Below, piece by piece: positions 35,648 to 37,668 of a stretch of DNA of 64,000 nt (position 1 is the stretch's first letter; each line of letters opens with the position of its first letter). The notes under the pieces were generated by a model that was not told where the DNA came from, ran no database searches, and saw nothing but the letters and a program-made list of their open reading frames with translations. The stretch is from a virus (taxonomy: Duplodnaviria; Heunggongvirae; Uroviricota; Caudoviricetes): the IMG/VR virus record IMGVR_UViG_3300033069_001798, positions 1 to 64,000 of that record, one strand, 5' to 3'. The position numbers were made by a program, and so were the translations under genes.

Positions 35648-36841
35648 TCAGAATTCGCCGCGAGTTCCGTGCTTCGCGTAGTAATCAGCTTCGTGCCGAG
35701 CAGAAGACTTCTTGTGCTTCGACCAAGACTTGATCTCTTCTGGCGTTGGCTTCACTGCGTCTGCAAACATGTAGTCAGCGCGTTGAGCTCGGCCGTCAGT
35801 TGTCCGGCACGTGACGTAGCTACCACCAGTCGACGGCGTATCTTCAAACGAAGCGATCTGAACGACAGCACCGCCTGGCAACTTCACCCAGTCACCGACG
35901 TTCCAGCCATCAAATGATGTCATTCCCTCGGTGAGAATCGTTCTGATCATCGACTTAAGCTCGCGAAGCTTGATCTTCATAACGAGTAAGTATTCACCCC
36001 AAAGGTGATCAAACGTCGCAGTGAACTTTCCCCAAGCTTCATCTTTCAGAAGCGACTTAAAGCCGTACTTCTCGAACGTAGAGCGGACTGGCGCCCAATC
36101 TTTGGTCGGTTGCGAAGACGTCATGCCATGCGCCTCTTCGTCAGACCACGTGGTGAACTTGATGAGCGAATAGTTCTTTCGAAAGGCTTCTTTATTAGCA
36201 GGATCATTGAAGAACTCCTTCAACGCATCCGGGTCGTCCATCAGCGCCGTAGCAGCACCATCCGTAATGATCTTTGGGATGTTGTCTGTTGGATCTCCAC
36301 GAAGAGCCTTCCATGTAACGTAATCAGCGGGAGCTTGCTCAACGTAAGCCTTCTTCATGGGGTTGTAGATGCTGACGCCCTCAAATTCATCTAGGAGCTG
36401 CGTGAAGTCAGAATCGTTCGATACAACTGTCCACTTCACGGCTCGTGTGCCACGCTTGATGAGGTTGTAGATTGTGTCATCGCACTCGTGGTGAGGATGA
36501 CGCACGACAGAGAACGGAAAAGAACCAGCCAGCAACCCGACTATCTCGTCGACCTGGCTGAAGAACTTCACCATCTCATCGTGCTCTTTGGTGCCGGCTT
36601 CTACGATGCGGTTCGCTTTGTATTGCGGCAAGATATCGTGACGAGCTTGCGGATGGCCTTCAAGCACGAAATACAAGCGACTGATATCAAGTTTTTCTAC
36701 TAGTGCTCGTATGTTACGAAAAAAATTAAAAACTACAGGAGCTGGACCAGCTGTCCAGCCAGTTCTAGACCGGTGCAAAAAATTCATCCCATCTACTAGA
36801 CAAATATGAGGACGCATAATTCTATTGTTACGTGCTTCCAT
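35648..36841 (-). CDS. 5'-3' exonuclease / flap endonuclease (T4 RNase H / Pol I 5' nuclease family)
   Basis: 'ICLVDGMNFLHRS…YKANR' is a PIN-like 5'-nuclease signature. Confidence 0.85.
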   Translation of the reverse strand: MEARNNRIMRPHICLVDGMNFLHRSRTGWTAGPAPVVFNFFRNIRALVEKLDISRLYFVLEGHPQARHDILPQYKANRIVEAGTKEHDEMVKFFSQVDEIVGLLAGSFPFSVVRHPHHECDDTIYNLIKRGTRAVKWTVVSNDSDFTQLLDEFEGVSIYNPMKKAYVEQAPADYVTWKALRGDPTDNIPKIITDGAATALMDDPDALKEFFNDPANKEAFRKNYSLIKFTTWSDEEAHGMTSSQPTKDWAPVRSTFEKYGFKSLLKDEAWGKFTATFDHLWGEYLLVMKIKLRELKSMIRTILTEGMTSFDGWNVGDWVKLPGGAVVQIASFEDTPSTGGSYVTCRTTDGRAQRADYMFADAVKPTPEEIKSWSKHKKSSARHEADYYAKHGTRGEF

Positions 36842-37479
36842 TGCTTGTTAAGCTTAATCCGATTTACTTGAGAACGACTAATATTGAACAGTTTCACAAT
36901 GTCACAAACTCTAGTTCCAATTGACAATTGATACTTGATTCCCTTAACATCATCTTCAGTCAATGAACAATTTGGATTTTTCACTCCAATCCGTAGTTTA
37001 GCATGCTCACTAATTTTTTTACGTGCTTGATCAGTAAGATGTGTTCCGAAATTTGGATTTCTAGCGCCACGCAAACCTTCCCAACCAAGTCTTGCACGAG
37101 AAATTGCCTGGCGATGTTCTAGTGACTTAGGTTTTCCGCGGTGTTTATCACTCATTTTCTGACGAGTTTCTATCGAAACAACGCAACCCGTAGATCCTTC
37201 TCCTCCACGCGTCAGATTATAACCTCTATCGATGTTAAACGAATCATAATGTGATATCCAATAAATTTCACGATCATCACACTCATGATCATCACACTCT
37301 TCTAGAATTCGAAACTCGAAATTTTCATGACCATATTTTCGGATGGAACAGTAAAGAGGTCGAAGATCACCTTTCTTGGCAGAATACAAATGTCCTGCTT
37401 TTCTATTGGAAAAATTTTTCGTTTGCCCAACATATACTTTCCCGTTGATTAGATTCTGAATCAGATAAACATATCTCAT
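36796..37479 (-). CDS. GIY-YIG homing endonuclease (free-standing), AT-rich
   Basis: 'YVYLIQNLINGKVYVGQTKNFSNRKAGH…YNLTRGG' is a GIY-YIG core. NUMOD3-like 'RQKMSDKHRGKPKSLEHRQAISRARLG'. Confidence 0.85.
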   Translation of the reverse strand: MRYVYLIQNLINGKVYVGQTKNFSNRKAGHLYSAKKGDLRPLYCSIRKYGHENFEFRILEECDDHECDDREIYWISHYDSFNIDRGYNLTRGGEGSTGCVVSIETRQKMSDKHRGKPKSLEHRQAISRARLGWEGLRGARNPNFGTHLTDQARKKISEHAKLRIGVKNPNCSLTEDDVKGIKYQLSIGTRVCDIVKLFNISRSQVNRIKLNKQWKHVTIELCVLIFV

Positions 37480-37668
37480 TCAATTAAGTATATCGAACCG
37501 TGTTGGAGGGGCAAAGAATAGCGTCTCCACGAGAGACCTGATGTTCCTCATGAAGTTGAAGACGACGGGCGCAGGACCGCCTGTCCATCCACTTCGGGCT
37601 CGATGCAGAAAATTCATGCCGTCGCACAGAACCACGTGAGGTTGTAGCATCTTCTTAGATTGTACCAT
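37480..37668 (-). pseudogene. displaced 5' fragment (about 47 codons) of the 5'-3' exonuclease gene, separated from the intact copy by the homing endonuclease gene
   Basis: 'MVQSKKMLQPHVVLCDGMNFLHRARSGWTGGPAPVVFNFMRNIRSLVE' matches 'RIMRPHICLVDGMNFLHRSRTGWTAGPAPVVFNFFRNIRALVE' of the intact gene. Nucleotide identity is about 65%, and the intact copy's 5' end is AT-shifted. Confidence 0.6.

What the first reader, a model, noticed from the sequence alone, without database searches (positions are those of the whole stretch)
35648..37668. GIY-YIG homing endonuclease gene sits between an intact FEN/5'-exonuclease gene and a displaced duplicate of its first ~47 codons
The AT-rich homing endonuclease gene (36796-37479) lies immediately upstream of the intact 5'-3' exonuclease gene. 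Beyond it lies a 62-codon ORF whose first 47 residues duplicate the exonuclease N-terminus, with about 65% nucleotide identity.

The intact gene's own 5' end is AT-shifted like the endonuclease gene. That is consistent with co-conversion of flanking sequence from a donor during a homing event that left the original 5' end stranded.

A second, paralogous GIY-YIG gene at 16611-17480 is likewise an AT-rich island.
Basis: seen in the sequence. Interest (0 to 1): 0.6.

Follow-up and report, generated by a model that had tools for sequence, protein, structure and literature searches.

The report
Homing cassette that replaces a gene's start
A selfish endonuclease gene sits inside a giant phage's 5'-3' exonuclease gene together with a foreign spare copy of that gene's first ~54 codons, leaving the phage's own first 50 codons stranded upstream; close relatives with the empty site, a second phage lineage and a second gene with the same layout suggest this is a recurring way for such elements to invade coding sequence without breaking it.

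Summary
On the minus strand the order is RNA ligase, a 62-codon ORF, a GIY-YIG/NUMOD3 endonuclease gene (HEG), then an intact 397-aa 5'-3' exonuclease gene.

A close relative without the HEG (L002) has RNA ligase directly followed by the exonuclease gene. Its first 149 nt are 100% identical to the stranded ORF. The window differs from that allele by an 840-nt block (37519..36680): a 40-nt leader, the HEG, and an AT-rich replacement of exonuclease codons 1-54. Only 9 nt of the empty allele are missing.

The block is 839/840 identical in a genome whose flanks are 92-94% identical (p=7e-21). It therefore moves as a unit.

A third allele (L004) lacks the HEG but keeps the foreign tract, with the crossover inside the repeat.

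The five nearest HEG relatives (54-62%) whose 3' neighbour could be read (four lineages) all sit directly upstream of an exonuclease gene. One (L016, with its own empty-site relative L039) has the same stranded fragment, ending about 6 nt earlier.

Relatives also carry an unrelated GIY-YIG cassette that replaces the 3' half of a NUDIX gene; the window holds the empty site.

The kind is known (intronless homing; fungal mitochondrial mORFs). The phage, 5'-end form looks undescribed.

The parts
37655..38677 (-). RNA ligase gene (340 aa). It is the upstream neighbour and serves as the left homology arm. In HEG-less relatives its 3' end overlaps the exonuclease start by 14 nt.
   Evidence: Pfam RNA_ligase 1.5e-12. 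Gene order in L002 and L004.
37520..37668 (-). Stranded native 5' end of the exonuclease gene: codons 1-50, GC3 0.633. With the 40-nt leader it forms the 62-codon ORF 37480..37668.
   Evidence: 149/149 nt identical to the start of the intact gene in the HEG-less allele L002. In L028 it carries 6 differences, all synonymous third positions.
36680..37519 (-). The mobile block of 840 nt: leader, HEG and replacement exonuclease 5' tract.
   Evidence: Absent from L002. 839/840 identical in L028, whose flanks differ at 152/2189 sites (Fisher p=7e-21). 840/840 identical in L001, whose flanks differ at 50/2190 sites.
37480..37519 (-). 40-nt leader. It contains a -35/-10-like pair: TTGCCC at 37514..37509, a 16-nt spacer, then TATACT at 37492..37487, ending 7 nt before the HEG ATG. 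It also supplies the last 12 codons and the stop of the stranded ORF; that stop (TGA) abuts the HEG ATG.
   Evidence: Promoter scan. The same hexamer geometry, TTGACC-like / N16 / TATAC-like, lies 6-8 nt before the ATG in all five HEG lineages. The motif is not clearly enriched elsewhere in the window. Promoter function is inferred.
36796..37479 (-). Free-standing GIY-YIG homing endonuclease gene: 227 aa, GC 0.376, GC3 0.276. Domain order is GIY-YIG, NUMOD3, then a C-terminal helix-turn-helix-like tail.
   Evidence: Pfam. Catalytic domain matches I-TevI 1mk0/1ln0 at E=2e-6. Catalytic-motif columns are invariant in the clade alignment. No intron RNA found at gathering threshold or at E<=1.
36680..36841 (-). 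Foreign (donor-type) replacement of exonuclease codons 1-54, GC3 0.222. Its first 46 nt overlap the HEG 3' end. It is in frame with the native remainder of the gene.
   Evidence: Alignment A2: donor-type through ...CTTGATATCAG (36681), identical to the empty allele from TCGCTTG (36680) onward. Composition. No variable site among 10 haplotypes.
35648..36679 (-). Native remainder of the 5'-3' exonuclease gene (codons 55-397). It serves as the right homology arm.
   Evidence: 97.2% identical to L002. Against L028 there are 66 nt differences but only 10 aa differences in 344 codons, which indicates purifying selection.
32315..32878 (-). Intact NUDIX gene. It is the empty site for a second, unrelated GIY-YIG end-replacement cassette present in relatives L028 and L001. 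The inferred target is at 32582..32600, the start of the Nudix box.
   Evidence: See full report and notes.

Best explanation
An I-TevI/Seg-like free-standing GIY-YIG homing endonuclease gene lives immediately upstream of the phage's 5'-3' exonuclease (FEN-type) gene and uses that gene as its target.

Inferred: the enzyme cuts HEG-less alleles at about codons 50-53 (GAG ACG CT|C GAA CCG AC|T CGC), just before the conserved YFVLEG motif.

Shown: the unit found in filled genomes is an 840-nt block. It comprises a 40-nt leader with a promoter-like element, the HEG, and a foreign, synonymously diverged copy of exonuclease codons 1-54 that is in frame with the rest of the host gene. Insertion therefore displaces the host's own first 50 codons. 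These remain upstream as a 62-codon ORF. The exonuclease gene stays whole because the block supplies a new start and N-terminus.

Inferred origin: the HEG came from an AT-rich donor in which it sat between an unrelated gene and the exonuclease gene. Repair of the break copied the donor's 5' tract and the HEG. It then joined the other broken end non-homologously just upstream of the HEG (one-sided, illegitimate double-strand-break repair).

Shown by population data: once formed, the arrangement spreads among related phages as a unit. RNA ligase plus the stranded fragment acts as the left arm, and the rest of the exonuclease gene as the right arm.

Inferred: the foreign tract destroys the target, which gives immunity. 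Being only 64% identical to the fragment, it limits loss of the HEG by recombination between the two repeats.

Shown: the L004/L005 allele is what such recombination, or repair from the homeologous copy, would produce. It lacks the HEG, is native up to codon ~19, and is foreign from there to codon 54.
For: Empty site. L002/L003 have RNA ligase directly followed by the exonuclease gene. The fragment matches 149/149 nt, and only 9 nt (CGAACCGAC) of the empty allele are missing from the window.

Foreign origin of the tract. GC3 is 0.222 in the tract and 0.276 in the HEG, against about 0.60-0.63 in the fragment, the rest of the gene and the RNA ligase gene.

Unit mobility. Among 10 haplotypes, variable sites number 107/1009 in RNA ligase and 84/1032 in the rest of the exonuclease gene, but only 2/840 in the block. 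In L028 the block shows 1/840 against 152/2189 in the flanks (p=7e-21). The nearest flank differences lie 45 nt to the left and 4 nt to the right of the block.

The arrangement occurs on at least 24 contigs from many independent samples and assemblers.

Chimeric HEG-less allele. In L004/L005 the crossover lies inside the longest shared block, ATGAATTTT, and the right boundary is the same as in the window.

Target association. The nearest HEG relatives (54-62% identity) in four other lineages all abut an exonuclease gene on their 3' side (a fifth, P0126, sits on a 939-nt contig and was not examined). Their 5' neighbour is different every time. More distant relatives (45%) lie in other contexts.

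Independent replicate. L016 has fragment, leader, HEG and intact gene, and its own empty-site relative L039. Its fragment ends at the same Leu-Val-Glu codons. Its 5' tract has GC3 of 0.28-0.36 against 0.66 for the rest of the gene.

In L017, which has no fragment, the first ~50-75 exonuclease codons are also HEG-like in GC3. This fits obligatory co-conversion between the HEG and a cleavage site inside the gene.

Both HEG-less alleles carry CCGAC at the junction. All four HEG-linked alleles lack it.

Framework from the literature: free-standing phage endonucleases cut in a neighbouring gene and co-convert the interval, and one-sided illegitimate repair has been shown for the T4 td intron (review PMC2988022).
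Against: - No cleavage assay was possible. The cut site is inferred only from junctions in two lineages, which differ by about 6 nt on the left and about 23 nt on the right.
- The donor genome was not found. No exonuclease in the 5.8-billion-protein search carries the foreign N-terminus outside this population.
- Co-conversion tracts implied by L028 (45 nt or less on the left, 4 nt or less on the right) are shorter than is typical for T4 homing. Later recombination in the flanks could also have produced the pattern.
- Loci L029-L038 were retrieved by exact HEG protein sequence, which hides non-synonymous HEG variation. L028 and L001 were retrieved through the exonuclease, and the non-coding and synonymous sites are unaffected.
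- Short, similar leaders (40, 66 and 57 nt) in three cassettes fit a defined element end at least as well as random illegitimate joining.
Confidence: 0.85

Rival explanations
1. A tandem duplication of the exonuclease 5' end arose in place and the copies diverged. The endonuclease gene later landed between them by chance.
For: Two direct, in-frame copies flank the HEG.
Against: - The upstream copy is 100% identical to the single copy of HEG-less relatives. The downstream copy differs at 29/41 third positions with a strong G/C to A/T bias that matches the HEG.
- The downstream copy is invariant together with the HEG across backbones that differ by 2-8%.
- No relative has the duplication without the HEG.
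Confidence: 0.03
2. The fragment is exon 1 of a split gene. The HEG would lie in a group I intron or other spliced or bypassed element, and the fragment would be joined to the downstream gene at the RNA or protein level.
For: GIY-YIG genes are often intron-encoded, and JGI annotates this protein as 'group I intron endonuclease'.
Against: - There is no Rfam match in the window at gathering score, nor at E<=1 in 36400..37900.
- The downstream gene has its own complete N-terminus, including the first catalytic Asp.
- Fragment and tract encode the same residues, so joining them would duplicate rather than complete the protein.
- The leader is homologous to HEG-upstream sequence in fragment-less lineages.
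Confidence: 0.02
3. The 62-codon ORF is kept because it does something. It might be a small protein, or an upstream ORF that delivers ribosomes to the HEG start, since its stop TGA abuts the HEG ATG.
For: - The ORF is intact in all haplotypes.
- It keeps the native translation start.
- TGA and ATG are adjacent.
- There is no Shine-Dalgarno-like sequence before the HEG.
- The six differences in L028 are all synonymous.
Against: - The synonymous pattern is what pre-insertion divergence of a functional gene would leave. The insertion is too young to show decay either way.
- In L016 the fragment ORF has a different tail and stops 40 nt before the HEG.
- Three HEG lineages have no fragment at all.
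- No free-standing homologue of the peptide exists in HEG-less relatives.
Confidence: 0.15
4. The block is not an accident of one-sided repair. It is a discrete element with defined ends that always travels as leader + HEG + spare gene end. It inserts exactly at its cleavage site, with the donor's own stranded fragment serving as a homeologous left arm even between distant phages.
For: - Three cassettes in two HEG families have the same geometry and short leaders of 40, 66 and 57 nt.
- Fragment ends coincide in two lineages.
- The leader element is conserved.
Against: - Three of five exonuclease-linked HEG lineages lack a detectable fragment.
- Leaders align only over the proximal ~35 nt.
- Only about 2 of 75 other GIY-YIG loci scanned show any flank duplication.
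Confidence: 0.3
5. Assembly artefact: two strain variants of the exonuclease 5' end were joined in one contig.
For: Metagenomic source, with two alleles of the same segment.
Against: The identical arrangement was recovered on at least 24 contigs from JGI, ENA and Logan assemblies of different samples. The junctions are clean and in frame. The HEG lies between the copies.
Confidence: 0.01

Closest known systems
Free-standing GIY-YIG endonucleases of T-even phages (SegF, SegG, SegA-E): 'intronless homing' (review PMC2988022)
   Same: - The HEG is a separate ORF next to its target gene.
- Cleavage is inferred to lie inside the neighbouring gene.
- The interval between the HEG and the cut is co-converted.
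- The gene is sporadically present among close relatives.
- It is AT-rich relative to the host.
- It overlaps neighbouring ORFs tightly.
   Different: - The left junction lies inside the target gene itself, so the native gene start is kept as a stranded duplicate.
- The inferred cut is only about 160 nt from the HEG.
- The cassette appears to bring its own promoter-like leader.
- No sequence relative closer than about 38% exists in cultured phages.
Mobile ORF elements (mORFs) of fungal mitochondria. The Allomyces macrogynus atp6 hybrid gene is cited in PMC3630166, which also describes Glomus atp6, atp9, cox2 and nad3.
   Same: An endonuclease ORF travels with a foreign copy of the end of the host gene. 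The host gene becomes a hybrid. The native end remains beyond the insertion. The native end is nearly identical to relatives, while the inserted copy is only about 64-81% identical.
   Different: - Those are mitochondrial, mostly LAGLIDADG, replace the 3' end, and are often fused in frame to the host gene.
- Here the host is a phage, the enzyme is GIY-YIG, the 5' end is replaced, and the HEG is a separate ORF upstream.
- The NUDIX cassette in relatives L028/L001 is the 3'-end form, but its HEG is convergent.
[quoted passage not shown]
   Same: There is homology on one side of the break only. The other junction forms non-homologously. This allows invasion of new contexts.
   Different: That was an engineered laboratory system. 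Here natural products are seen, with an intact target gene, in at least two lineages. The product has since spread by ordinary two-sided homing.
I-TevI (T4 td intron endonuclease)
   Same: GIY-YIG catalytic domain (PDB 1mk0/1ln0, E=2e-6). Modular layout with a linker and a C-terminal DNA-binding region.
   Different: Not intron-encoded. NUMOD3 repeats. Different target. The distance between binding and cleavage sites is unknown.
HEG insertions that split or rearrange phage genes: Aeh1 mobE in nrdA is mentioned in PMC2988022. The T4 mobA/gene 60 cassette is cited from my own knowledge and was not checked here.
   Same: A free-standing HEG ends up inside an essential gene, and the gene still works.
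   Different: Those cases leave genes in pieces, or use translational bypassing. Here function is preserved by carrying a replacement gene end.

Membership tests
GIY-YIG homing endonuclease (I-TevI / Seg type) | GIY-YIG catalytic domain with its conserved Tyr, Arg, Glu and Asn positions | tested here: met
   Pfam PF01541 5.6e-11. I-TevI catalytic domain 1mk0, E=2e-6. YVG, R26, E71 and N88 are invariant in the clade alignment.
GIY-YIG homing endonuclease (I-TevI / Seg type) | Separate DNA-binding modules C-terminal to the nuclease domain | tested here: met
   NUMOD3 7.3e-8. Faint HTH_7 hits on clade members. The C-terminal SRSQVNRIK segment is conserved.
GIY-YIG homing endonuclease (I-TevI / Seg type) | Sporadic presence or absence at one locus among near-identical genomes | tested here: met
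   L002 is empty and the window, L001 and L028 are filled, with flanks 92-98.5% identical.
GIY-YIG homing endonuclease (I-TevI / Seg type) | Site-specific cleavage of the HEG-less allele, with immunity of the HEG-bearing allele | not testable with these tools
   Only inferred: junctions map to one 9-nt to 36-nt interval in two lineages, and CCGAC is present in both empty alleles and absent from four filled ones.
Intronless homing with co-conversion (free-standing phage HEGs) | Donor sequence between the HEG and the cut site is inherited with the HEG | tested here: met
   The 162-nt tract shares the HEG's GC3 and its invariance. The same compositional step is seen in L016 and L017.
Intronless homing with co-conversion (free-standing phage HEGs) | HEG located between genes, not inside the target ORF | tested here: not met
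   In the window and in L016 the block interrupts the original ORF at codon ~50. It is met in L017, L018 and L020.
mORF-type gene-end replacement element (fungal mitochondria) | An endonuclease ORF plus a foreign copy of the host gene's end, forming a hybrid gene, with the native end retained beyond the insertion | tested here: met
   Alignment A2. The native fragment is 100% identical to its relative, against 64% identity to the inserted copy. This is the mirror-image (5'-end) version. The 3'-end version is seen at NUDIX in L028/L001.
mORF-type gene-end replacement element (fungal mitochondria) | Endonuclease ORF in phase with, or fused to, the host gene (true of some members) | tested here: not met
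   The HEG is a separate ORF in another frame, overlapping the exonuclease start by 46 nt.
Group I intron-encoded endonuclease | A ribozyme core around the ORF, with exons that join to restore the gene | tested here: not met
   No Rfam match at gathering score or at E<=1. The two 'exons' encode the same residues.
5'-3' exonuclease / FEN (PF02739) for the host gene | N-terminal PIN-like domain with acidic motifs (DG, LEG, ECDD, SNDSDF) | tested here: met
   Pfam 1.1e-16 over residues 13-164. 437 homologues found. The motifs span the foreign/native junction in frame.

The most novel reading that the evidence does not exclude
Free-standing GIY-YIG endonucleases in these giant phages form a distinct class of mobile cassette. 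Each carries a promoter-bearing leader and a recoded spare end (5' or 3') of its target gene. This lets it home directly into the conserved core of an essential ORF without an intron or intein. The spare end would give immunity, keep the gene functional, and be selected to differ at synonymous sites so that the direct repeats seldom recombine the HEG away.
Probability: 0.3. Interest if true: 0.65.

Novelty: new variant of a known kind. Interest (0 to 1): 0.5.

Why it matters
Homing endonuclease genes are usually said to survive inside coding sequence only by hiding in introns or inteins, or else to stay between genes. This locus shows a third route in a phage: bring a replacement for the part of the gene you displace.

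The metagenomic population holds three informative alleles side by side: the empty site, the filled site, and a HEG-less chimera that keeps the foreign tract. An independent replicate exists in another phage lineage, and a mirror-image case exists at a second gene. Together these form a natural series for studying several questions:
- how free-standing endonucleases enter new genomes;
- where they cut;
- how far co-conversion reaches;
- how they are lost.

There is also a practical consequence for annotation. Short ORFs duplicating a neighbour's end next to an AT-rich nuclease gene are footprints of homing, not genes. The 5' or 3' ends of such 'core' genes can be horizontally acquired and will mislead phylogenies.

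Tried and rejected
1. Near-identical cultured phage: megablast of 6 kb against 50,697 phage records found nothing. By protein, the best hits were 38% or less for the HEG and about 30% or less for the exonuclease.

2. Intron hypothesis: two Rfam searches were empty.

3. RNA structure in the leader: the fold z-score was -1.5, not significant.

4. Terminator-like hairpin at the junction (37537..37523): it is part of the native coding sequence, is absent from the second lineage, and the scan was not above the shuffled expectation.

5. Tail of the stranded ORF (..PPTRFDIL) resembling exonuclease residues ..PQARHDIL. I considered a deeper remnant, or an operator mimicking the target. I rejected both. 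These 40 nt align with HEG-upstream leaders of fragment-less lineages, and the second lineage's target has no such sequence.

6. Leader motif GATATACWTA as a general phage promoter: 6 matches against 2.4 expected (3 of 100 shuffles gave as many), none upstream of other obvious genes.

I reused those loci as a background sample. Only L016, and weakly L064, show flank duplications among 75 HEG ORFs.

8. Nine other IMG/VR phage contigs with exonuclease homologues: none has a HEG or a fragment.

9. Flank duplications around the other two AT-rich islands of the window: none.

10. Five full-text literature searches found no description of a phage HEG with a stranded duplicate of its target's end. 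This is absence from the held library only.
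Full report
**1. What is there**

On the minus strand of the window the gene order is as follows:
- an RNA ligase gene (38677..37655);
- a 62-codon ORF (37668..37480);
- a 227-codon ORF (37479..36796);
- a 397-codon ORF (36841..35648).

Pfam assigns the 227-aa protein to GIY-YIG (5.6e-11) plus NUMOD3 (7.3e-8). It assigns the 397-aa protein to the 5'-3' exonuclease N-terminal domain (1.1e-16). The nuclease domain matches the I-TevI catalytic domain in the PDB (E=2e-6).

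The 62-aa peptide matches the start of the exonuclease with tblastn E=1.5e-23 in a search of the whole window. In register, 80/125 nt and 31/41 residues are identical. 29 of 41 third positions differ, and 22 of those go from G/C in the fragment to A/T in the intact gene.

GC3 values:
- stranded fragment 0.633;
- RNA ligase 0.604;
- rest of the exonuclease gene 0.602;
- HEG 0.276;
- first 162 nt of the intact gene 0.222.

**2. The empty site**

A search of 5.8 billion proteins with the exonuclease found 437 homologues, mostly on contigs of 270-350 kb, which indicates uncultured giant phages.

One close relative (P0003, on contigs L002 and L003) has RNA ligase directly followed by the exonuclease gene, with no endonuclease gene. 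Its N-terminus is the sequence of the stranded ORF.

At the DNA level (alignment A2; identities):
- The window's fragment is 149/149 identical to the first 149 nt of that gene, through ...GTGGAGACGCT (window 37520).
- It then diverges into 40 nt that lead into the HEG start codon.
- The window's intact gene is of a different, AT-rich type through ...CTTGATATCAG (36681).
- It is identical to L002 from TCGCTTGTATTTCG (36680) onward.
- Only nine nucleotides of the empty allele (CGAACCGAC) are missing.

The window thus differs from the empty allele by a clean 840-nt block, 37519..36680. The block is a leader, the HEG, and a replacement for codons 1-54.

**3. The block moves as a unit**

The identical HEG protein is encoded on at least 24 contigs from many samples and three assembly sources. 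All have the order RNA ligase, gap, HEG, exonuclease.

I aligned ten distinct haplotypes over 3,030 nt. Variable sites were:

| Segment | Variable sites |
|---|---|
| RNA ligase | 107/1009 |
| Native fragment | 6/149 |
| Leader | 1/40 |
| HEG | 1/638 |
| HEG/exonuclease overlap | 0/46 |
| Foreign tract | 0/116 |
| Rest of exonuclease gene | 84/1032 |

The most diverged genome, L028, was retrieved through its exonuclease protein and not through the HEG.
- It differs from the window at 152/2189 flank positions but at 1/840 block positions (Fisher p=7e-21).
- L001 gives 0/840 against 50/2190 (p=1.5e-7).
- In L028 the nearest flank differences lie 45 nt left and 4 nt right of the block.
- Its six differences in the fragment are all synonymous third positions. 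That is what divergence of a functional gene before insertion would leave.

The empty allele L002 is closer to the window (97-98.5%) than L028 is. Presence of the block therefore does not follow the backbone.

One caveat applies. Loci L029-L038 were found by exact HEG protein, which hides non-synonymous HEG variants. This does not affect synonymous sites, the leader, the tract, or L028 and L001.

**4. A third allele**

P0004 (contigs L004 and L005) also lacks the HEG. Its exonuclease gene is native through codon ~19, then carries the foreign tract up to exactly the same right boundary as the window. The switch lies inside ATGAATTTT, the longest run shared by the two repeats.

This is the product expected in either of two ways. 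One is recombination between the direct repeats of a filled genome, which would lose the HEG. The other is break repair that used the homeologous copy as the left arm.

Either way, this allele lacks the HEG and has the foreign version of the presumed target.

**5. The endonuclease belongs with the exonuclease gene**

The five nearest relatives of the HEG are P0122 to P0126, at 54-62% identity.
- Wherever the 3' neighbour can be read (L016, L017, L018/L019, L020), it is an exonuclease gene. It is either overlapping or within 2 nt.
- The 5' neighbour is different and unrelated in all five lineages.
- Relatives at 45% identity sit in other contexts.
- In L016 and L017 the first 50-75 exonuclease codons have the HEG's low GC3 (0.28-0.44), and the rest of the gene has 0.64-0.9.

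This is the pattern of 'intronless homing' described for T-even Seg endonucleases. There, the enzyme cuts in the neighbouring gene and the interval between the cut and the HEG is co-converted (PMC2988022).

**6. An independent replicate**

L016 carries the closest HEG relative, in a phage whose exonuclease is only 57% identical to the window's. It has the same architecture:
- a fragment ORF (1210..1368);
- a 66-nt leader;
- the HEG (1409..2065);
- the intact gene (2067..2915).

Its own empty-site relative exists (P0041 on L039).
- The fragment equals L039 through ...TTGGTTGA, the same Leu-Val-Glu codons and 6 nt short of the window's junction.
- The intact gene is foreign-type until ...GCCCTC|GAAGGTCACCC and native thereafter.

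The two empty alleles share GAG-ANG-NTC-NAN-CCG-ACN-CG at the junction. The four HEG-linked alleles all lack CCGAC.

I infer that the cut lies within or next to the nine missing nucleotides, just upstream of the conserved YFVLEG motif. This step is inferred, not shown.

**7. The leader**

The ~35 nt before the HEG start align across all five lineages. They keep a TTGACC-like hexamer, a 16-nt spacer and a TATAC-like hexamer, ending 6-8 nt before the ATG.
- In L020 this sequence runs into the 3' end of the unrelated upstream ORF. The window's leader is therefore donor DNA from just upstream of the HEG.
- The motif is not clearly enriched elsewhere in the window.
- I read it as a cassette-borne promoter that may give a nearly leaderless message. 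This is inference only.
- In the window the fragment ORF stops (TGA) directly before the HEG ATG, so translational coupling is possible. It is not conserved in L016.

**8. How it most likely arose and works**

Shown:
- an 840-nt block composed of the HEG and a foreign gene start;
- the stranded native start;
- unit inheritance of the block;
- the three alleles;
- recurrence in a second lineage.

Inferred:
- The HEG came from an AT-rich relative in which it lay between an unrelated gene and the exonuclease gene.
- The enzyme cut the resident gene at codons ~50-53.
- The right end invaded the donor gene and copied the tract and the HEG.
This is the one-sided illegitimate repair demonstrated for the T4 td intron (summarised in PMC2988022).

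The product keeps the exonuclease gene whole: Pfam match across the junction, and 10 amino-acid changes against 66 nt changes versus L028.

From then on the arrangement is an ordinary two-armed homing substrate among related phages. That explains its near-identity on diverged backbones.

An alternative that I cannot exclude (about 0.3) is that the arrangement with the fragment is itself the ancestral travelling form, and that fragment-less lineages are derived.

**9. A second gene, a second endonuclease, the other end**

While checking indels between the window and its relatives I found that the window's intact NUDIX gene (32878..32315) is the empty site of another cassette, present in L028 and L001. 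There the gene has this structure:
- native codons 1-93 (GC3 0.46);
- foreign codons 94-190 (GC3 0.24, about 45% identical);
- a convergent GIY-YIG/NUMOD3 gene (GC3 0.31, only 31% identical to the exonuclease HEG);
- a 57-nt leader;
- the stranded native 3' half, 94.5-96.7% identical to window residues 97-187.

Only 19 nt of the empty allele (window 32600..32582, the start of the Nudix box) are missing.

The geometry is the same as at the exonuclease gene. The stranded piece is on the HEG's 5' side and the foreign tract on its 3' side.

A quick scan of 75 other GIY-YIG ORFs from metagenomes found only L016, and a weak candidate, L064. The design is therefore uncommon but recurrent.

**10. Comparison with what is known, and novelty**

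The enzyme is a new member of the I-TevI/Seg-type GIY-YIG homing endonucleases. The best match in cultured phages is 38% or less.

The process is intronless homing with co-conversion.

The architecture is the mirror image of the fungal mitochondrial mobile ORFs. Those bring a foreign C-terminus and leave the native one downstream, as in Allomyces atp6 and in Glomus atp6, atp9, cox2 and nad3 (PMC3630166). The NUDIX case is the same-end version.

Five full-text searches found no phage example. I rate it a new variant of a known kind.

**11. Verdict**

- Confidence in the evolutionary account: about 0.85-0.9.
- Confidence in the exact cut site and the one-sided-repair origin: about 0.6-0.7.
- Interest: 0.5. 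Nothing overturns current understanding. The value lies in an unusually complete natural series (empty, filled and chimeric alleles, a replicate lineage, and a second gene) showing how free-standing endonucleases can occupy the conserved core of essential phage genes without introns or inteins.

Noticed in passing
window 32315..32878 (-), inferred target at 32582..32600; L028 8790..10437; L001 about 11140..12787: The window's intact NUDIX gene is the empty site of a second, unrelated GIY-YIG cassette present in relatives. There the gene is native for codons 1-93 and foreign and AT-rich for codons 94-190. A convergent HEG, a 57-nt leader and the stranded native 3' half follow. Only 19 nt of the empty allele are missing.
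   Followed up: yes
window 33490..34296 (-); L001 8546..10528; L002 8543..10525: The Peptidase_C1-family gene is 268 aa in the window and intein-free. It is 660 aa with an Intein_splicing (PF14890) insert in L001, L002, L031 and L033. This is an intein presence/absence polymorphism about 2 kb from the exonuclease locus.
   Followed up: partly
window 60880..62199 (-): This is the third AT-rich island (GC 0.33-0.35). A single 439-aa ORF has Cys-rich repeats and a TnsA-like endonuclease N-domain (E=4e-5, below Pfam's cut-off), fused in frame to a dCMP deaminase domain (PF00383, 5e-23). It lies next to thymidine kinase. It may be a nuclease-deaminase fusion of homing origin. No flank duplication was found.
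   Followed up: partly
window 16611..17480 (-): The second GIY-YIG gene (289 aa, GC 0.38-0.39) lies antisense to its neighbours. It is related to the first only in the catalytic domain (39% over 113 aa), and its C-terminal half is Cys-rich. There is no duplication of flanking genes.
   Followed up: partly
window 35648..about 35990 (-): The exonuclease carries a ~115-aa C-terminal extension (MKIKLRELK...GTRGEF) that is absent from the ~275-aa homologues and has no Pfam match. It looks like a small downstream ORF fused by loss of a stop codon.
   Followed up: no
window about 36200..36330 (-); L004 about 6500..6700: There are two allelic forms of the exonuclease H3TH region in the population. The window has NIPKIITDGAATAL, with only a weak PF01367 match. 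L004/L005 have the canonical NIPGIPGIGDKVAEQL. The region is 87.7% identical with indels. This is mosaicism unrelated to the HEG block.
   Followed up: no
L064 84..1438 (Ga0114918_10067264): A GIY-YIG gene (535..1374) follows a 128-aa gene. The last ~16 codons of that gene (..DDIIDAYFTEETLYN) recur just after the HEG (..DDIVDAYYVQQTLYN; E=2e-5). This may be another end-replacement cassette in an unrelated contig.
   Followed up: partly
window 37523..37537 (-): A 6-bp inverted repeat (GTCTCTCGTGGAGAC) ends 3 nt before the fragment/leader junction, and in the filled allele it is followed by a T-rich run. It is part of the native coding sequence and is not conserved in the second lineage. It is probably coincidental.
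   Followed up: partly
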